A stretch of 64,000 bases of DNA from Escherichia phage vB_EcoM-BECP11, in the sequence record MW286157.1; one strand, given 5' to 3'. Shown piece after piece: positions 41,030 to 46,836 of this stretch; the stretch's first letter is position 1, and each line of letters opens with the position of its first letter. The translations under genes were made by a program, and so were the position numbers. The notes under the pieces were generated by a model, which worked only from the letters and a program-made list of their open reading frames with translations, was not told where the DNA came from and ran no database searches.

Positions 41030-41363
41030 AATTTTGGTTTTATGTATAGGATTAATTTCATTTTCTGCGTTAGCAGATACATCATATACTGAAATTAGAG
41101 AGTATGTAAACCGTACTGCAGCGGATTATTGCGGGAAAAATAAAGCATGCCAAGCTGAATTTGCGCAGAAATTAATATATGCATATAAAGACGGAGAAAG
41201 AGATAAATCAAGCAGATACAAAAACGATACATTGTTAAAACGATATGCTAAAAAGTGGAATACCTTAGAATGTTCAGTTGCGGAGGAGAAAGATAAAGCC
41301 GCTTGTCATTCAATGGTTGACCGTTTGGTAGATTCTTATAATCGAGGATTGAGTACTAGATGA
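41022..41363 (+). CDS. secreted protein at the T4 vs position (identity tentative)
   Basis: 113 aa with signal peptide MTKILVLCIGLISFSALA; placement by synteny only. Confidence 0.5.
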   Translation: MTKILVLCIGLISFSALADTSYTEIREYVNRTAADYCGKNKACQAEFAQKLIYAYKDGERDKSSRYKNDTLLKRYAKKWNTLECSVAEEKDKAACHSMVDRLVDSYNRGLSTR

Positions 41364-41839
41364 TTGTAAAATATATCAAGGGCGATATTGTCGCCCTATT
41401 TCTTCAAGGTAATATTATTGCGCACGGGTGCAATTGTTTTCATACTATGGGTTCAGGTGTAGCGGGTCAATTAGCAAGAGCCTATCCCAAAATTTTAGAA
41501 ATAGATAAAACCACTACTGAGTACGGTTCTCGTGATAAATTAGGCGATATGTCTATTGTTTTTAAACATAAACCTAATGGTTTTGGCATATGTTATAACT
41601 TGTACACGCAATACGAACCAGGTCCTAATCTTGATTATGGTGCTTTAGTAAACTGCATGATAGAATTAAATCTACAGGCAGAAACCCTTTTGTTTAAACC
41701 GGTAATTTACATTCCGCGTATAGGTTGTGGTATTGCTGGCGGCGATTGGGATAAGGTTTCTAAATTAATCGACATGTTTACTCCTGATATTGATTTAATA
41801 GTGGTGGATTATGAAAGTACATTACCCACATCCGTTTGA
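41360..41839 (+). CDS. macro-domain protein (ADP-ribose binding or hydrolase fold)
   Basis: 159 aa; N-terminal GDIVALF...NIIAHGCNCFHTMGSGVAGQL resembles macro-domain nucleotide-binding motifs; ATGA coupling. Confidence 0.65.
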   Translation: MIVKYIKGDIVALFLQGNIIAHGCNCFHTMGSGVAGQLARAYPKILEIDKTTTEYGSRDKLGDMSIVFKHKPNGFGICYNLYTQYEPGPNLDYGALVNCMIELNLQAETLLFKPVIYIPRIGCGIAGGDWDKVSKLIDMFTPDIDLIVVDYESTLPTSV

Positions 41840-42023
41840 TCCTAAAAACAAAGCAGTAATTATTCGTCAATGGGAACGCATTTGCCGTACTAAATGCCCA
41901 ATTAATAGTCCACATGATGTAGATAAAGACTACATTGGAACATTCGTTGAATATACCTTTATTGATAAGAAAGGTCGTAAACAACATGTAGAAGAATATT
42001 GCTTAAAGGTTACATGGTTATGA
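41811..42023 (+). CDS. hypothetical protein
   Basis: 70 aa ORF overlapping neighbours. Confidence 0.5.
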   Translation: MKVHYPHPFDPKNKAVIIRQWERICRTKCPINSPHDVDKDYIGTFVEYTFIDKKGRKQHVEEYCLKVTWL

Positions 42024-42226
42024 GCCAAACTAGTATTCTTAAAAATGCCCATTGTGAAAAGTGTAAGTGGCCGGTTGTTTTTGCTTTATGCAACGATGAA
42101 ATGACTTGTGATTTCGATTATTGGTGCTATTGCTCGAACAAGGGTTGTAGCAATCATAAAGGTGAAGGATTTTATTCTGGATTTAATCCTTATCCGGATT
42201 TCGTTAAAGAAGGTGAACCAAAATGA
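42020..42226 (+). CDS. small cysteine-rich (putative zinc-binding) protein
   Basis: 68 aa from ATGA-coupled ATG; CEKC...CNDEMTC...CYCSNKGC. Confidence 0.55.
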   Translation: MSQTSILKNAHCEKCKWPVVFALCNDEMTCDFDYWCYCSNKGCSNHKGEGFYSGFNPYPDFVKEGEPK

Positions 42227-42396
42227 ATAATTTTGAGTTACGCTATGAAGTTTTACGCAATATTGATAATTTAATTGAACTTGCCGTAAATAAGGGTTTT
42301 GCTATTGGAATTGGTCAAAAAGATACTGATCATTTAACGATGGAAATATTTAAGCAAAAGCGAATTATCTTAAAACTTCTAGGATTTAATATATGA
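42223..42396 (+). CDS. small hypothetical protein
   Basis: 57 aa ORF below the track cutoff, ATGA-coupled at both ends. Confidence 0.45.
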   Translation: MNNFELRYEVLRNIDNLIELAVNKGFAIGIGQKDTDHLTMEIFKQKRIILKLLGFNI

Positions 42397-42578
42397 GTCT
42401 GAGTAAAGAACAAAAAGACAAACTCTTTTCTCTTATCCACGAAGTTATGGATAAAAATAGCGAATTGGAAAAAGTTTGTAATGAATGCGGTCCTTTTAGT
42501 GCAAACGAGTACGAAGAACTTTCTAAAGAATTCGATAATAAAGAACAAGAACTCATTGATTATATAAATTCATTATGA
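42393..42578 (+). CDS. small helical protein, paralogue family member
   Basis: 61 aa MSLSKEQKDKLFSLIHEV...ELIDYINSL. Confidence 0.55.
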   Translation: MSLSKEQKDKLFSLIHEVMDKNSELEKVCNECGPFSANEYEELSKEFDNKEQELIDYINSL

Positions 42579-42763
42579 TTACTCGCGAACAAAAGAACGA
42601 AATATTATTTTTAGTTAGTGAAATTGTTAGTTTAGAAAAGGATTTGTCTTTTGAAATATCTTCTGAATATGGAGATGCCGAAACATATTACGAATTAGTA
42701 AAATCTATCGATAAAGCTGAAAATGATTTAGAAACATATTTAGAAAATTTAACTAAGGACTAA
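42575..42763 (+). CDS. small helical protein, paralogue family member
   Basis: 62 aa MITREQKNEILFLVSEIV...DLETYLENL. Confidence 0.55.
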   Translation: MITREQKNEILFLVSEIVSLEKDLSFEISSEYGDAETYYELVKSIDKAENDLETYLENLTKD

Positions 42764-42764
42764 G

Positions 42765-43346
42765 ATGGCGAGTTTAATTTTTACTTATGCAGCAATGAAT
42801 GCTGGAAAATCTGCTTCTCTTTTGACTGCTGCACATAATTATAAAGAACGTGGAATGGGTGTATTAGTTCTTAAGCCTGCTATTGATACTCGCGATTCTG
42901 TCTGCGAAGTCGTTTCTCGCATTGGAATTAAACAGGAAGCGAATATTATTACAGATGATATGGATATTTTCGAGTTCTATAAATGGGCTGAAGCACAAAA
43001 AGATATTCATTGCGTATTTGTAGATGAAGCTCAGTTTTTAAAAACTGAACAGGTGCACCAATTAAGCCGAATTGTTGATACATATAATGTTCCTGTTATG
43101 GCTTATGGATTAAGGACTGATTTCGCTGGAAAATTGTTTGAAGGTTCTAAAGAACTTTTAGCGATTGCAGATAAACTTATTGAACTAAAGGCAGTTTGTC
43201 ATTGCGGCAAAAAAGCGATTATGACAGCTCGATTAATGGAAGATGGAACACCAGTTAAAGAAGGTAATCAAATCTGTATTGGTGATGAAATTTATGTTTC
43301 TTTGTGTAGAAAACACTGGAACGAATTAACTAAAAAGCTCGGTTAG
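42765..43346 (+). CDS. tk: thymidine kinase
   Basis: 193 aa; P-loop NAGKSASL; C-terminal CHCGKKA...C zinc ribbon typical of TK. Confidence 0.9.
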   Translation: MASLIFTYAAMNAGKSASLLTAAHNYKERGMGVLVLKPAIDTRDSVCEVVSRIGIKQEANIITDDMDIFEFYKWAEAQKDIHCVFVDEAQFLKTEQVHQLSRIVDTYNVPVMAYGLRTDFAGKLFEGSKELLAIADKLIELKAVCHCGKKAIMTARLMEDGTPVKEGNQICIGDEIYVSLCRKHWNELTKKLG

Positions 43347-43355
43347 TGCAAAAGT

Positions 43356-43363
43356 TATAAATA
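43356..43363 (+). promoter_or_regulatory. late promoter TATAAATA
   Basis: Exact TATAAATA 26 nt upstream of ATG 43389. Confidence 0.5.
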
Positions 43364-43388
43364 GGTTTATCTAACTAAAGGGGTATAT

Positions 43389-43601
43389 ATGCTACAATTA
43401 ACTGAAAAGCAACTTCGCAATCTTACTGTGCTTCAATTAGATGAAATTCGTAGGGAAGTTGGAAATATCATTTCAGCTTTGCGTCGAGAAGTATCACTCA
43501 ACCAATCTCCGGCAGACTATACTAGATTGCGAAATTTTGAAAAATACCTTGATAAAGTTAAGGCCGTGCATCGGCATAAAGTAAATACAGGACAAAAATG
43601 A
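43389..43601 (+). CDS. hypothetical protein adjacent to rI
   Basis: 70 aa, SD AAAGGGG. Confidence 0.55.
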
Positions 43602-43613
43602 TAGGAGGCCTTT

Positions 43614-43907
43614 ATGGCCTTAAAAGCAACGGCACTTTTTGCCATGCTAGGATTGTCATTTGTTTTATCTCCATCGATTGAAGCGAATGTCGATCCTCAT
43701 TTTGATAAATTTATGGAATCTGGTATTAGGCACGTTTATACACTTTTTGAAAATAAAAGCGTAGAATCGTCTGAACAATTCTATAGTTTTATGAGAACGA
43801 CCTATAAAAATGACCCGTGCTCTTCTGATTTCGAATGTATAGAACGAGGCGCGGAGATGGCACAATCATACGCTAGAATTATGAACATTAAATTGGAGAC
43901 TGAATGA
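43614..43907 (+). CDS. rI: lysis inhibition regulator RI
   Basis: 97 aa with signal-anchor MALKATALFAMLGLSFVLSPSIEA; recognised as T4 RI. Confidence 0.85.
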   Translation: MALKATALFAMLGLSFVLSPSIEANVDPHFDKFMESGIRHVYTLFENKSVESSEQFYSFMRTTYKNDPCSSDFECIERGAEMAQSYARIMNIKLETE

Positions 43908-44290
43908 AATTCAGCGACTTTTCACAAAGTGGAAAACCTTCAAAGGCAGATGAATACTTAGGTTTATTAATGGCTGCACAAGCTTATTTTCATTCTGCAC
44001 ATTTTGAAACTAAAAGTTATGCTAGACACAAAGCATACGATTTTATTTTCTCCGAATTGCCAGATTTGATTGATAAATTTGGTGAGCAATATTTGGGGTA
44101 TTCTGGTAGAAAATACACACCTTCAATTCCAGATGCCAGTAAACTTCCTACCGACACAATTAAAATGATTGATCGCATACTAGACCAATCTAACAGCATT
44201 TATAAAGAAATGCCTCCAGCCATTCAAAGCACGATAGATGATATTACTGGGATGTTTTACCAGAGTAAGTATCTTCTTTCCCTCGAATAA
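43904..44290 (+). CDS. hypothetical protein adjacent to rI
   Basis: 128 aa, ATGA-coupled to rI. Confidence 0.6.
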
Positions 44291-44294
44291 CATT

Positions 44295-44320
44295 AGTCTC
44301 CTTCGGGAGACTTTTTTCAT
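44295..44320 (+). terminator. intrinsic terminator
   Basis: AGTCTCC-TTCG-GGAGACT hairpin then TTTTTTCATTTT. Confidence 0.75.
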
Positions 44321-44327
44321 TTTACCG

Positions 44328-44358
44328 GTTTACTTTCCATTTGAGCTGTGATACTATA
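44328..44358 (+). promoter_or_regulatory. T4-type early promoter
   Basis: GGTTTACT ... TGTGATACTATACAACTATC. Confidence 0.6.
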
Positions 44359-44385
44359 CAACTATCGGATAAAGAGGAGAACATC

Positions 44386-44574
44386 ATGAAAATTGAAGCA
44401 CTCAATCAAGAAGGAAATATCTACGTCATCATTAATGGTGATTTTTTCGTCGACATGGATGAAGTTACTAGTGAAGAACTTGTAGAACTTCTTAAGAAAC
44501 GTTATAATATGTGTGATGAAGTTGCAACTCACATGGCGTGTGCAATATTCTCTCTGTCATATGTGGTGGAATAA
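44386..44574 (+). CDS. small hypothetical protein
   Basis: 62 aa from ATG after SD AGAGGAGAA; track ORF starts inside the promoter. Confidence 0.55.
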
Positions 44575-44777
44575 TGATTAGTATAGAGCAAGCAGATAAA
44601 ATCAAGGAATTAGTGGCTTCAATTCGTAAAGCAGATGAAGAGCTGATTGACTTTGCTTGGTATTCATCGGGTATTTCGAATAAAGGCATTAAAGACTTTG
44701 AAGCTAAAGTTGATAATGCTATAGAAGCGTTAGATATGTTTCTTGATGAAATTATCGATCATAATACGAGAGTTTAA
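44574..44777 (+). CDS. small helical protein, paralogue family member
   Basis: 67 aa [17 protein letters not shown]...ALDMFLDEI, TAATG coupling. Confidence 0.55.
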   Translation: MISIEQADKIKELVASIRKADEELIDFAWYSSGISNKGIKDFEAKVDNAIEALDMFLDEIIDHNTRV

Positions 44778-44779
44778 TT

Positions 44780-44974
44780 ATGTTAACACACGAACAGTTT
44801 GAAAAAATCATTAAATTAGCACGTGATATTGAAATAGATTCATATCAATTAGCAGTTGAGCATTGTGAAGGATATTCATACGACGGTATAGAAACAGCTA
44901 AAAAGGATTTGGATAAATCTAAAGCTAAGTTAGTTCAATATCTTGAAATGATTAGGTGGAATAATGAAAACTGA
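44780..44974 (+). CDS. small helical protein, paralogue family member
   Basis: 64 aa MLTHEQFEKIIKLARDI...KLVQYLEMI. Confidence 0.55.
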   Translation: MLTHEQFEKIIKLARDIEIDSYQLAVEHCEGYSYDGIETAKKDLDKSKAKLVQYLEMIRWNNEN

Positions 44975-45137
44975 AAAGCAGATGTTTTTAATGAAACTAA
45001 TTGAAGAATATGCTAATGCAGTTTCTGACTATGAATGCTCTTCTCGTGAAAGAGGCACAGCTTTCGCTAAAGAAGAATTGAAAATCATGGTTGATGCTCA
45101 TACAAAGCTTCAGAATTTTATCGAAAACGTCATTTAA
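44964..45137 (+). CDS. small helical protein, paralogue family member
   Basis: 57 aa MKTEKQMFLMKLIEEY...KLQNFIENVI; below track cutoff. Confidence 0.5.
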   Translation: MKTEKQMFLMKLIEEYANAVSDYECSSRERGTAFAKEELKIMVDAHTKLQNFIENVI

Positions 45138-45139
45138 TG

Positions 45140-45169
45140 GTTTACAAGTTGGCAAGGTTATGGTATAGT
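45140..45169 (+). promoter_or_regulatory. T4-type early promoter
   Basis: GGTTTACA ... TATGGTATAGT. Confidence 0.6.
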
Positions 45170-45197
45170 AATCTTGTCAACTGCCAAGGAGAAGAGA

Positions 45198-45302
45198 ATG
45201 AAAGTTTTGTTTGTTGTGTATGTGATGATTCAATATAATTACCCAATGTTTACTTATAATTTGGTGAACAACATTATTGATATTATTCAAAGGAGCATGT
45301 AA
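45198..45302 (+). CDS. candidate 34 aa hydrophobic micro-protein
   Basis: MKVLFVVYVMIQYNYPMFTYNLVNNIIDIIQRSM with strong SD AAGGAGAAGAGA, TAATG-coupled to next gene. Confidence 0.3.
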   Translation: MKVLFVVYVMIQYNYPMFTYNLVNNIIDIIQRSM

Positions 45303-45487
45303 TGACAAGTGAGCAGGCTTTTAAATTAAGAGAATTAATTGAGACGTATAGTAAAGCTGTTCATACATCAACAATTATTGATGAATCAGCTTTCTCCGGA
45401 CATGCCAACAAGATTAAATACAAAACTCTTATGGAAGAAGCTAAAGTAAATCTTGATTCTTATATTGAAACTTTAATTGGTGAATAA
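45302..45487 (+). CDS. small helical protein, paralogue family member
   Basis: 61 aa MTSEQAFKLRELIETY...NLDSYIETL. Confidence 0.55.
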   Translation: MTSEQAFKLRELIETYSKAVHTSTIIDESAFSGHANKIKYKTLMEEAKVNLDSYIETLIGE

Positions 45488-45488
45488 C

Positions 45489-45755
45489 ATGGGCTTTCCT
45501 AAATTAGAAGTAGGTGATTTGGTCTTAACAAAATTGTGGAATGGTGTTCAATCAGTAGAAATCTGTCAATATCGTGGAGCAACAGGTAATTTGATGTACA
45601 CGATTTATAATCCAGAAATTTTATTAGAGTGTCATTTGGAACGCTTTATAAAAGACACCGATAGTATGCCGTATAGTGTATCGATTGTACGTAAATCTGA
45701 TACAAAGGAATACTCTAAAATTTTAGAACAAATTCGTGCCAATAAAAAGGATTAA
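45489..45755 (+). CDS. hypothetical protein
   Basis: 88 aa from ATG 45489; track ORF starts at TTG. Confidence 0.55.
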   Translation: MGFPKLEVGDLVLTKLWNGVQSVEICQYRGATGNLMYTIYNPEILLECHLERFIKDTDSMPYSVSIVRKSDTKEYSKILEQIRANKKD

Positions 45756-45756
45756 T

Positions 45757-46308
45757 ATGAAACGATTAGTATTAGAAGATAGTCCACTTTTTGGTGAATT
45801 GGCTGTAGAAAAAGTAAATAACATGTATCGTTTGACGCAAGAAGATGACATGTTATATTTTACGCCTAGCGAAATTGTTCGTTTAACCCAAATTGAATAT
45901 GCTTACACTGATAAAATTGTAAGCATTAATGATGAGCATAAAATTCATTTTTATTCTTCATGCCCAGGATTTAATATTAAAAGCGAGTCAATGTGCTTAT
46001 CAATTAATAATTGGGATAATTTTATAACTTACATTAAATATTTTTATTATTCTAATGAAAGAAAACATAGTTTAAAATGGCTTAAAAATTGCAATGCTAT
46101 TATTACTAACGCTTGCGATCAGTGCGATCAGTGCGATCAGAATGATGAAACTGTTTTAAATGTATCAAAATGTTATGAAGAAGGAGATGTCTTAACTATT
46201 CGTCAAATTGACGATTTTCGATCACATATTGTCACATTTACCAAAGACGAAGCTATTGCACTAAAGACTTATCTTGATTCTGTCATTCCAACTATGATTT
46301 CAAAGTGA
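45757..46308 (+). CDS. hypothetical protein with internal (CDQ)x3 repeat
   Basis: 183 aa; C-terminus ...ALKTYLDSVIPTM resembles that of the next gene. Confidence 0.6.
   Translation: MKRLVLEDSPLFGELAVEKVNNMYRLTQEDDMLYFTPSEIVRLTQIEYAYTDKIVSINDEHKIHFYSSCPGFNIKSESMCLSINNWDNFITYIKYFYYSNERKHSLKWLKNCNAIITNACDQCDQCDQNDETVLNVSKCYEEGDVLTIRQIDDFRSHIVTFTKDEAIALKTYLDSVIPTMISK
46114..46140 (+). repeat. perfect tandem repeat 3 x TGCGATCAG, in frame
   Basis: Three identical 9 nt units encoding CDQCDQCDQ inside the 45757-46308 ORF. Confidence 0.9.
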
Positions 46309-46314
46309 GGAAAT

Positions 46315-46836
46315 ATGTTTATTTCAAGTGGAAGCGGTTTAATTCGTGTTGAATTTAAAAATGACATCTTCCTTAGTCAAGGAGATGATATTATTAAAAT
46401 GAGTTATGACGAAATCAAGAAAATTTGTCATACTCTTGAAAGCCGTGGAAAAGTAAATGCTGTTATTGATATTGGCGATTTATGGGTAACGCTTTATGAA
46501 GTATCCGAAGGATTTAACATTGAAGATGAAAATAACATCTTAGCTATTGATAAAAGAACTGATTTGCTTGATGTATTAAAAGCCTATGAGCAGTCAAATG
46601 GCGGAAGAAAAGCTGTATTGATTTATCAAAAACCGCATTCATGTGGAACTGCTTCAATCATTTCAAATATTGAAGGCGAAGTTGATACTTATATGTGTGT
46701 TTTAAAAGCTGGTGGTGACCGTCATCCGGATTTTATTTCTATTCGTCAAAACAATGAAGAAATTTCATTATCAAAATCAGAAGCTGAAGCTATGATTAAG
46801 TATTTAACAACCGTTACGCCTCCAATGAAAGGATAA
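46315..46836 (+). CDS. hypothetical protein, paralogue of previous gene
   Basis: 173 aa; C-terminus ...AMIKYLTTVTPPM. Confidence 0.6.
   Translation: MFISSGSGLIRVEFKNDIFLSQGDDIIKMSYDEIKKICHTLESRGKVNAVIDIGDLWVTLYEVSEGFNIEDENNILAIDKRTDLLDVLKAYEQSNGGRKAVLIYQKPHSCGTASIISNIEGEVDTYMCVLKAGGDRHPDFISIRQNNEEISLSKSEAEAMIKYLTTVTPPMKG

What the first reader, a model, noticed from the sequence alone, without database searches (positions are those of the whole stretch)
42393..45487. Family of at least six 57-67 aa helical micro-proteins in two clusters flanking tk and rI
42393, 42575, 44574, 44780, 44964 and 45302 share an N-terminal pattern M-x-x-x-[EK]-Q-x-x-K-[LI]-x-x-L-[IV], a short central loop and a C-terminal [DN]-L-x-x-[YF]-[LI]-E-x-[LI] helix. 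They are translationally coupled head to tail. Such multi-copy micro-protein families in phage early regions often act as host-protein inhibitors.
Basis: seen in the sequence. Interest (0 to 1): 0.55.

Follow-up and report, generated by a model that had tools for sequence, protein, structure and literature searches.

The report
T4-type helical-hairpin micro-protein family (DUF7438)
The six small genes are true paralogues encoding about 60-residue acidic two-helix hairpins made early in T4-like phage infection, but the family is already catalogued (Pfam DUF7438; T4 genes tk.1, tk.2, mobD.2a, mobD.3, mobD.4) and its function is still unknown.

Summary
The window is a Tequatrovirus (T4/T6/RB14-like) genome. 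The six ORFs are tk.2, tk.1, mobD.4, mobD.3, mobD.2a and a sixth copy found in T6 and RB14 but not annotated in T4. All six match Pfam PF24219 (DUF7438) at 54-69 bits against a cut-off of 25. Each outscores 500 shuffles of itself in leave-one-out HMM tests. No other ORF in the window, or in the rest of the RB14 genome, matches clearly.

AlphaFold gives a confident antiparallel two-helix hairpin (pLDDT 96). The fold is generic and has no informative structural relative.

The proteins are acidic and under purifying selection (dN/dS 0.05-0.19). Published T4 data show them transcribed early and detected as proteins, and each is individually non-essential. Copy number around tk ranges from 0 to 6 across T4-like phages. 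The hairpin base is conserved and the tip is variable.

The host-protein-inhibitor idea is plausible but untested; no target is known. The family is already in Pfam and PHROGs, so the finding is correct but not new. It is a reasonable, modest-priority experimental target.

The parts
42393..42578 (+). tk.2 orthologue, 61 aa, DUF7438 member (pI 4.4, net charge about -8)
   Evidence: Pfam PF24219 at 68.6 bits; phrog_653; RB14 annotation tk.2; ATGA overlap with the upstream 57-aa ORF
42575..42763 (+). tk.1 orthologue, 62 aa, DUF7438 member, immediately upstream of tk (TAAgATG)
   Evidence: Pfam 56.7 bits; AlphaFold2 hairpin with pLDDT 96.3; RB14 annotation tk.1
44574..44777 (+). mobD.4 orthologue, 67 aa, DUF7438 member with a long variable tip
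   Evidence: Pfam 58.9 bits; RB14 annotation; central codons 23-45 have the highest pN (0.106)
44780..44974 (+). mobD.3 orthologue, 64 aa, DUF7438 member
   Evidence: Pfam 61.3 bits; similar sequences in about 555 phage records
44964..45137 (+). mobD.2a orthologue, 57 aa, DUF7438 member
   Evidence: Pfam 54.2 bits; phrog_2758
45302..45487 (+). Sixth copy, 61 aa (orthologue of RB14ncORF101c and T6 gp099); not annotated in T4
   Evidence: Pfam 57.8 bits; phrog_4859; present at >=80% identity in 191 phage records; the T4 annotation goes straight from mobD.2 to mobD.1
44295..44312 (+). Intrinsic-terminator-like hairpin (AGTCTCC-TTCG-GGAGACT followed by a T run) that closes the tk-rI unit before the second cluster
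   Evidence: sequence
44328..44357 (+). T4-early-promoter-like site (GTTTAC, 18 nt, TACTAT with TG upstream) ahead of mobD.5 and the second cluster
   Evidence: Sequence read; a mobD.5 promoter was mapped by primer extension in T4 (PMC1702504). That the two are the same site is my inference.
44386..44574 (+). mobD.5, 62 aa. Not a family member; first ORF of the second string, with its stop overlapping the mobD.4 start (TAATG)
   Evidence: phrog_3024, no DUF7438 hit
45140..45169 (+). Second early-promoter-like site (GTTTAC, 18 nt, TATAGT with TG) ahead of mobD.2 and the sixth copy
45198..45302 (+). mobD.2, 34-aa hydrophobic ORF with AAGGAG Shine-Dalgarno; its stop overlaps the start of the sixth copy (TAATG)
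   Evidence: Sequence; the RB14 annotation of mobD.2 ends where RB14ncORF101c starts

Best explanation
Identity (shown). These are six paralogous accessory genes of a T4-type phage: tk.2, tk.1, mobD.4, mobD.3, mobD.2a and a T6/RB14-type sixth copy. All belong to Pfam DUF7438. Each encodes a roughly 60-residue acidic antiparallel two-helix hairpin. They sit in two strings of translationally coupled small ORFs around tk and rI. T4 data show the family transcribed early, with four of the five T4 members detected as proteins. Each gene is individually dispensable, is kept by purifying selection, and is gained, lost, swapped and recombined among closely related phages.

Mechanism (inferred, not shown). 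The proteins act stoichiometrically as small protein-binding modules during host takeover. The conserved base of the hairpin is the N-terminal M-[IL]-T-x-E-Q...[IL]..L[VI]..[IVL] segment packed against the C-terminal L..[YF][LIV][ED].[LI] segment. It carries more conserved large hydrophobic residues than one helix pair can bury. It would therefore mediate self- or hetero-association into a four-helix bundle, or docking onto a common partner. The variable, mostly acidic tip would set target specificity. The most likely targets are host proteins, either defence or nucleic-acid-binding factors. Paralogues would cover different or polymorphic targets, or act redundantly.
For: Family membership and significance.

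Fold: AlphaFold2 pLDDT 96.3, pTM 0.80, two helices.

Acidity: pI 4.2-5.3 and net charge -2 to -10 for the six; family median pI 4.46.

Conserved base and variable tip:
- The lowest column entropies fall at positions 1-17 and 48-60 of tk.1 numbering.
- Conserved large hydrophobics sit at 2, 10, 13, 14, 17, 52, 55, 56 and 59, with Ala at 20 and 48.
- tk.2 alleles from phages with 50-100% identical Tk keep both termini but replace residues about 19-48, with indels.

Real, expressed genes:
- dN/dS is 0.05-0.19 in close orthologues, like the neighbouring genes at 0.01-0.18.
- In T4, mobD.3 and mobD.4 are classed early RNA and early protein; tk.1 and tk.2 are classed early RNA and middle protein (PMC9697503 supplement).
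- A mobD.5 promoter is mapped in T4 (PMC1702504), and early-promoter-like sites lie at 44328 and 45140.

Accessory character:
- All five T4 members are non-essential in HIDEN-SEQ (bioRxiv 10.1101/2025.11.20.689424 supplement).
- The nrdC.11-mobD.3 segment is deletable in T4 (PMC9825161).
- There are 0-6 copies per Tk-anchored locus in 40 T4-like contigs.
- tk.1 and the sixth copy each occur in only about a third of roughly 550 related phage records.
- Natural tk.2::tk.1 chimeras exist.

Neighbourhood: tk.4, two to five genes upstream, is the anti-DarTG2 factor AdfM.

Distribution: phage-only. There are only 37 representatives among 1.84 billion clusters, all about 60 aa. Some sit as single copies in unrelated, smaller phage contigs among small early-type ORFs.
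Against: - No partner, target or phenotype is known.
- Single-gene disruption in T4 gave no reported effect against RexAB, RnlAB, CBASS, DarTG1 or DarTG2, or in minimal medium. Redundancy could mask an effect, but this is equally consistent with a role unrelated to defence.
- dN/dS gives no sign of positive selection at the shallow depth sampled.
- Oligomerisation is inferred only from hydrophobic-position counts. The one natural tandem fusion (P0132) is a singleton on a 1.1-kb contig and folded with low confidence (pLDDT 69, pTM 0.44).
- Two members (mobD.2a and the sixth copy) are only mildly acidic.
Confidence: 0.45

Rival explanations
1. They are Rop-like nucleic-acid regulators. Hairpins would dimerise into an antiparallel four-helix bundle that binds structured RNA (or DNA) and tunes the stability or translation of early phage or host transcripts.
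Against:
- Most members carry strong net negative charge, and there is no conserved basic patch: basic residues exceed 50% only at column 9.
Confidence: 0.1
2. They are partners or modulators of the phage's own proteins. Candidates are thymidine kinase and the dNTP-synthesising enzymes, or the RI/T lysis-inhibition proteins that they flank.
For: Where the family is present, one copy sits in the slot just upstream of tk and is coupled to it. This holds in several Tevenvirinae lineages: Tequatrovirus, Moonvirus Merlin, the AP014714/AP014715 phages and others. The neighbouring small genes rI.-1 and rI.1 are reported to modulate lysis inhibition (PMC2962797, title and abstract).
Against: - 14 of the 40 Tk-anchored loci have no detectable copy, so Tk does not need one.
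- Distant members occur in phage contigs where the called genes around the member show no thymidine-kinase (TK) Pfam hit.
- Synteny is preserved throughout T4-like genomes regardless of function.
- The second cluster lies behind a terminator and has its own promoter.
Confidence: 0.1
3. They are DNA-mimic decoys, a special case of the main explanation. Acidic four-helix bundles would imitate the phosphate backbone and sequester DNA-binding host proteins such as restriction enzymes or nucleoid proteins, as Ocr and Arn do.
For: tk.2, tk.1 and mobD.4 carry net charge of -7 to -10 on 61-67 residues. Expression is early. T4-type genomes do encode such inhibitors: arn is annotated as a restriction-nuclease inhibitor in RB14.
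Against: mobD.2a and the sixth copy have charge of only -2 to -3, and one family member has pI 8.2. The spatial charge pattern could not be examined. There is no similarity to Ocr, Arn or other known mimics in Pfam or PDB searches.
Confidence: 0.1
4. The resemblance is chance or compositional (helical, Glu/Lys/Leu-rich short ORFs), or the ORFs are decaying remnants without function.
For: Several individual pairs are not significant on their own; mobD.4 against mobD.2a has z = 0.0. Helical hairpins are easy to evolve.
Against: - Pfam scores are 2-3 times the cut-off.
- Leave-one-out HMMs beat all shuffles.
- dN/dS is 0.05-0.19.
- Proteins are detected in T4.
- Orthologues are conserved across genera.
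Confidence: 0.02
5. The names in public records are right: helicase loader, KilA anti-repressor, or molybdopterin-guanine dinucleotide biosynthesis protein MobD.
For: The phrog_4859 label 'helicase loader' and the RefSeq T6 product names; the NCBI name 'MobD' on several clusters.
Against: - The sixth copy shows no similarity to the T4-type helicase loader gp59 of RB14: best blastp E 0.91 over 8 residues, family HMM 0.6 bits, and 61 aa against 218 aa.
- There is no Pfam or NCBIfam hit to any such family at E <= 1.
- One T6 record gives three mutually exclusive labels to the same gene.
- In my reading 'MobD' is a confusion with the neighbouring T4 homing-endonuclease gene mobD, after which the ORFs are numbered.
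Confidence: 0.01

Closest known systems
Pfam PF24219 (DUF7438) and PHROGs 653, 2758 and 4859: T4 tk.1, tk.2, mobD.2a, mobD.3, mobD.4 and their T6/RB14 orthologues
   Same: The six ORFs are members and near-identical orthologues (94-100% amino-acid identity to RB14 and T6 copies). Length, full-length HMM match and genomic position all agree.
   Different: Nothing differs. The window simply carries the largest complement seen (six, against five in T4 and 0-5 in other sampled loci).
Rop/Rom (ColE1 RNA one modulator), a 63-aa helical hairpin that dimerises into a four-helix bundle
   Different: There is no detectable sequence relationship. RNA binding and dimerisation are untested here. The structural match is no better than to thousands of other hairpins.
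CsoR/RcnR/FrmR metal- or aldehyde-sensing repressors
   Different: Those proteins have a third helix and a conserved Cys/His sensing site, and they bind DNA as tetramers. DUF7438 has two helices and no conserved Cys or His. No Pfam hit.
Small early phage inhibitors of host proteins (T4 AsiA, Arn, Dmd; T7 Ocr, Gp2)
   Same: Small, often acidic, made early, non-essential in the laboratory, and encoded among strings of small ORFs (this is my own general knowledge of those proteins). asiA, arn and dmd are annotated in the RB14 genome.
   Different: There is no sequence or specific fold similarity, and no target is known. Unlike those single-copy genes, this family is multi-copy and varies in copy number.

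Membership tests
Pfam PF24219 (DUF7438) | Whole-protein HMM score at or above the gathering cut-off (25 bits) | tested here: met
   68.6, 56.7, 58.9, 61.3, 54.2 and 57.8 bits, each covering profile positions 1-56/57
Pfam PF24219 (DUF7438) | Single-domain protein of about 57-67 residues found in phages | tested here: met
   The six are 57-67 aa. Homologues are about 60 aa and sit on phage-type contigs.
PHROGs 653 / 2758 / 4859 | Profile match | tested here: met
   phrog_653 for tk.2, tk.1, mobD.4 and mobD.3 (E 1e-22 to 5e-25); phrog_2758 for mobD.2a (4e-35); phrog_4859 for the sixth copy (5e-39). Weaker cross-hits link the three.
Rop family | Sequence or profile similarity to Rop | tested here: not met
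Rop family | Helical hairpin of about 60 residues | tested here: met
Rop family | Homodimeric four-helix bundle that binds RNA kissing complexes | not testable with these tools
   No multimer prediction or binding assay was available. The natural tandem fusion P0132 gave a low-confidence model.
T4 gp59-type helicase loader (label of phrog_4859 and RefSeq T6) | Similarity to gp59 | tested here: not met
   Best blastp E 0.91 over 8 residues; family HMM 0.6 bits on RB14 gp59; 61 aa against 218 aa
MobD / molybdopterin-guanine dinucleotide biosynthesis (NCBI name on some clusters) | Match to any molybdenum-cofactor biosynthesis family | tested here: not met
   No Pfam or NCBIfam hit at E <= 1. In my reading the name derives from the T4 locus name mobD.x.
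CsoR/RcnR/FrmR | Three-helix protomer with a conserved Cys/His ligand set | tested here: not met
   Two helices only; no conserved Cys or His column; no Pfam hit
DNA-mimic inhibitor (functional kind) | High negative charge density arranged like a DNA backbone | tested here: inconclusive
   Net charge is -7 to -10 for three members but -2 to -4 for the other three. Spatial arrangement was not examined.
Known anti-phage defence proteins (PADLOC-DB) | Profile match | tested here: not met
   Only sub-threshold noise, E >= 0.008

The most novel reading that the evidence does not exclude
DUF7438 is a modular scaffold for diversification. A conserved base would dimerise or dock. A hypervariable hairpin tip would be swapped and recombined among otherwise near-identical phages to neutralise polymorphic host immunity or takeover targets. 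On this reading the complement of copies and alleles (0-6 per phage) helps determine which strains a T4-like phage can infect.
Probability: 0.15. Interest if true: 0.65.

Novelty: already known. Interest (0 to 1): 0.3.

Why it matters
T4 is the best-studied lytic phage, yet roughly half of its genes have no function; these five or six are among them. Knowing that they form one family with one fold changes how they should be tested. They sit in two transcription units and may act redundantly, so they should be deleted together, not one at a time. That may explain why single-gene screens have been silent. If they prove to be inhibitors of host proteins, the pattern of variable tip and variable copy number would give a compact, engineerable determinant of host range. 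As it stands, the finding confirms existing database knowledge and adds no new kind of system.

Tried and rejected
1. Searched for further members in the window with two HMMs. None beyond the six.
2. Scanned the whole genome, using the window plus the rest of RB14. The only extra candidate is a borderline pseT.1 match (E 0.006, no Pfam hit), left as a lead.
3. The search for related loci with the 38-sequence alignment failed because no stretch was conserved enough. I used Tk as an anchor instead.
4. A sequence search of the PDB gave nothing below E 0.019.
6. Rop homology was tested and rejected.
7. gp59 'helicase loader' homology was tested and rejected.
8. NCBIfam and PADLOC gave no hits.
9. 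I used the natural tandem two-repeat protein P0132 as a proxy for a dimer. It is a singleton and its single-sequence AlphaFold2 model had low confidence. I did not use alignment A3 because MAFFT aligned the family's two helices to helices 1 and 4 of P0132, which would have biased the model.
10. A DNA- or RNA-level explanation for the conserved N-terminus was rejected. The paralogues share no nucleotide repeat longer than a 13-nt start junction, and they use different codons for the conserved residues.
11. Literature searches by gene name, UniProt accession and family name found no functional study.
Full report
**What the window is.** Megablast of 42200-45800 and of 1-25000 finds hundreds of Tequatrovirus genomes at 94-99% identity, including T6, RB14, Shigella phage ESh18 and wV7. 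The + strand of the window is the early-gene strand. Using the RB14 gene names, the local order is:
- vs.1, vs, tk.4, tk.3 and two small ORFs;
- tk.2 (42393), tk.1 (42575), tk (42765), rI.1 (43389), rI (43614), rI.-1 (43904);
- mobD.5 (44386), mobD.4 (44574), mobD.3 (44780), mobD.2a (44964), mobD.2 (45198);
- RB14ncORF101c (45302), a Phage_tudor protein, two mobD.1-like genes and nrdC.11.

The sixth copy is present in T6 and RB14, but the T4 annotation lacks it: there mobD.2 abuts mobD.1.

**Is the family real?** Yes.
- All six match Pfam PF24219 (DUF7438) over the whole 57-position profile, at 54-69 bits against a cut-off of 25.
- PHROGs splits them into phrog_653, phrog_2758 and phrog_4859, with weaker cross-hits linking the three.
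- Independently of those libraries, pairwise local alignments reach z = 9.4 against 1000 shuffles and form a connected graph.
- In leave-one-out HMM tests every member outscores all 500 shuffles of itself.
- An HMM of the six recovers only the six among 912 six-frame ORFs.
- A broader 38-sequence HMM finds nothing else in the window or in the remaining 100 kb of the RB14 genome. The one exception is a borderline hit to pseT.1 (E 0.006) that Pfam does not recognise.

The paralogues share no nucleotide repeat beyond a 13-nt start junction, and they use different codons for the conserved residues. The conservation is therefore at the protein level and the duplications are old.

**Structure.** I modelled tk.1 with a 38-sequence alignment. 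AlphaFold2 gives pLDDT 96.3 and pTM 0.80, with helix 4-29, a five-residue loop and helix 35-60. This is an antiparallel helical hairpin. The fold is generic:
- Foldseek finds no PDB entry at E <= 1e-3.
- The viral structure library returns only uncharacterised phage proteins.
- Profile search of PDB sequences finds nothing.

Column statistics show the conserved positions concentrated at the open end of the hairpin:
- N-terminal M-[IL]-T-x-E-Q.
- Hydrophobic positions 10, 13, 14 and 17, facing 52, 55, 56 and 59.
- Ala at the mid-helix core positions 20 and 48.
- High entropy around the loop.

That is more conserved large hydrophobic residues at the base than one helix pair can bury. I therefore infer self-association or docking through the base; this is an inference, not a result. 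The proteins are acidic, with pI 4.2-5.3 and net charge -2 to -10; the family median pI is 4.46.

The second cluster is a separate unit. A strong terminator-like hairpin at 44295-44312 is followed by a T4-early-promoter-like site (GTTTAC, 18 nt, TACTAT with TG) at 44328-44357 and a GAGGAG ribosome-binding site for mobD.5. A mobD.5 promoter was mapped by primer extension in T4, and its transcript is RegB-insensitive (PMC1702504). A second such promoter at 45140-45169 precedes mobD.2 and the sixth copy.

The published T4 time course classes mobD.3 and mobD.4 as early RNA and early protein. It classes tk.1 and tk.2 as early RNA and middle protein. For mobD.2a the RNA is early and there is no protein call (PMC9697503 supplement). 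So at least four orthologues are translated.

**Selection and dynamics.** Among close orthologues, dN/dS is 0.05-0.19. The value for tk.1 is 0.8, but it rests on very few changes. Neighbouring genes give 0.01-0.18, so the genes are maintained.

The complement is fluid:
- In 40 Tk-anchored loci from viral contigs (Tk identity 47-100%), copy number within 5 kb ranges from 0 to 5. Copies are always on the tk strand and in the same two slots, upstream of tk and 1.2-2.7 kb downstream.
- Moonvirus Merlin and the AP014714/AP014715 phages keep one or two strong copies upstream of tk and a weak one in the downstream slot. Both slots are therefore old.
- Two phages whose Tk is 100% identical to the window's carry a tk.2 allele only 56% identical, and they lack tk.1.
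- tk.2 alleles keep both termini but replace residues about 19-48, with indels.
- mobD.4 has its highest non-synonymous divergence in codons 23-45.
- tk.1 and the sixth copy each occur in about a third of roughly 550 related phage records, while mobD.3-like sequence is in nearly all.
- Natural tk.2::tk.1 chimeras (P0012, P0087) show recombination between paralogues.

**Distribution.** The 5.8-billion-protein search returns 109 clusters, essentially all on Tequatrovirus-size contigs. The exhaustive HMMER search of 1.84 billion representatives returns only 37, nearly all 57-65 aa. Some distant members are single copies in unrelated phage contigs, for example a 45-kb contig with PDDEXK, AAA_25 and NinH genes, always among small unannotated ORFs. 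I found no bacterial, non-phage context.

**What is known functionally.** Nothing direct.
- All five T4 members are non-essential by transposon sequencing. The paper reports other genes, not these, as hits against RexAB, RnlAB, CBASS, DarTG1 and DarTG2, and in minimal medium (bioRxiv 10.1101/2025.11.20.689424).
- The nrdC.11-mobD.3 block can be deleted from T4 (PMC9825161).
- The neighbour tk.4 is the anti-DarTG2 macrodomain AdfM, so the region does hold counter-defence genes.
- Literature searches by gene name, accession and family name found no study of these proteins.

Names in public records ('helicase loader', 'kilA', 'molybdopterin-guanine dinucleotide biosynthesis protein MobD') are not supported. 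There is no similarity to gp59 and no Pfam or NCBIfam hit. One T6 record gives contradictory labels to one gene.

**Most likely mechanism.**
- Shown: a curated family of early, translated, acidic helical-hairpin micro-proteins that are dispensable one at a time, are conserved by selection, and vary in copy number and tip sequence.
- Inferred: they work by binding, not catalysis. The conserved base would give association, and the variable tip would give specificity towards host proteins during takeover or counter-defence. Redundancy or strain-specific targets would explain the silent single-gene screens.

I put about 0.45 on this general model and about 0.95 on the identity statement. The rivals are Rop-like RNA binding, modulation of phage Tk or lysis-inhibition proteins, and DNA mimicry as a special case. 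Each gets about 0.1 and none is excluded. Chance resemblance and the database names are refuted.

**Verdict.** The family is already known to Pfam and PHROGs, and the genes are long-annotated T4 ORFs, so this is not a new kind of element. Its value is practical. The copies should be studied, and deleted, as a set.

Noticed in passing
window 41360-41839 (+): The macro-domain gene tk.4, a few genes upstream of the first cluster, is the orthologue of T4 AdfM. AdfM was recently shown to counter the DarTG2 defence system (bioRxiv 10.1101/2025.11.20.689424; Pfam Macro hit).
   Followed up: partly
window 45736-46308 and 46315-46836 (+): A second paralogue pair sits just downstream. These are two tandem mobD.1-like genes, both with T4_y05I_N plus T4_y05I_C domains ('putative transcription factor'), 28% identical.
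   Followed up: partly
L053:32852-33082 (-) (RB14 pseT.1, outside the window): The 76-aa pseT.1 protein has DUF7438-like ends (MISWYQFEHLKGLIYE... and ...ASKDLHDYIQSLVEK) around a longer middle. It scores E 0.006 (14.5 bits) with my 38-sequence HMM but is not recognised by Pfam. It may be a distant seventh member in T4-type genomes.
   Followed up: partly
proteins P0012, P0087, P0088, P0100: Natural chimeras exist. Some join the N-terminal half of tk.2 to the C-terminal half of tk.1, through recombination between paralogues. Others are mobD.3::nrdC.11 fusions that mark deletions of the whole mobD block; one is from a T4 record tagged 'T4583L'.
   Followed up: no
L002 / L051 (T6 records AP018814.1 and NC_054907.1) and the cluster names: Small ORFs of this region carry unsupported automatic names. 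Examples are 'helicase loader', 'kilA anti-repressor', 'rI antiholin' for a 57-aa ORF, 'tail assembly protein', 'virion structural protein' and 'molybdopterin-guanine dinucleotide biosynthesis protein MobD'. In T6, tk.2 is also annotated from an internal start (132 nt).
   Followed up: partly
window 44565-44577 and 44955-44967 (+): The starts of mobD.4 and mobD.2a share the same 13-nt junction, GGTGGAATAATGA. It combines a Shine-Dalgarno-like GGTGG, the end of the upstream gene and the ATG. It is the only nucleotide-level repeat between paralogues.
   Followed up: no
window 44295-44357 and 45140-45169 (+): A strong terminator-like hairpin is followed within 20 nt by a T4-early-promoter-like site. 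A second such site lies inside the 45137-45238 ORF listed mechanically. The real mobD.2 is more likely the 34-aa ORF at 45198-45302, which has an AAGGAG ribosome-binding site.
   Followed up: partly
protein P0113 (936 aa): A large protein with about 20 tandem copies of an 18-residue unit (LSSEQRTKLTELLHTIES...) matched the N-terminal helix of the family profile 14 times. I judge it a repeat or compositional match, not a relative.
   Followed up: no
window 41811-42396 (+): The three small ORFs between tk.4 and tk.2 each belong to their own family: DUF7202 (tk.3), Phage_zn_bind, and phrog_3452 for the 57-aa ORF at 42223. The whole stretch consists of catalogued families of unknown function.
   Followed up: no
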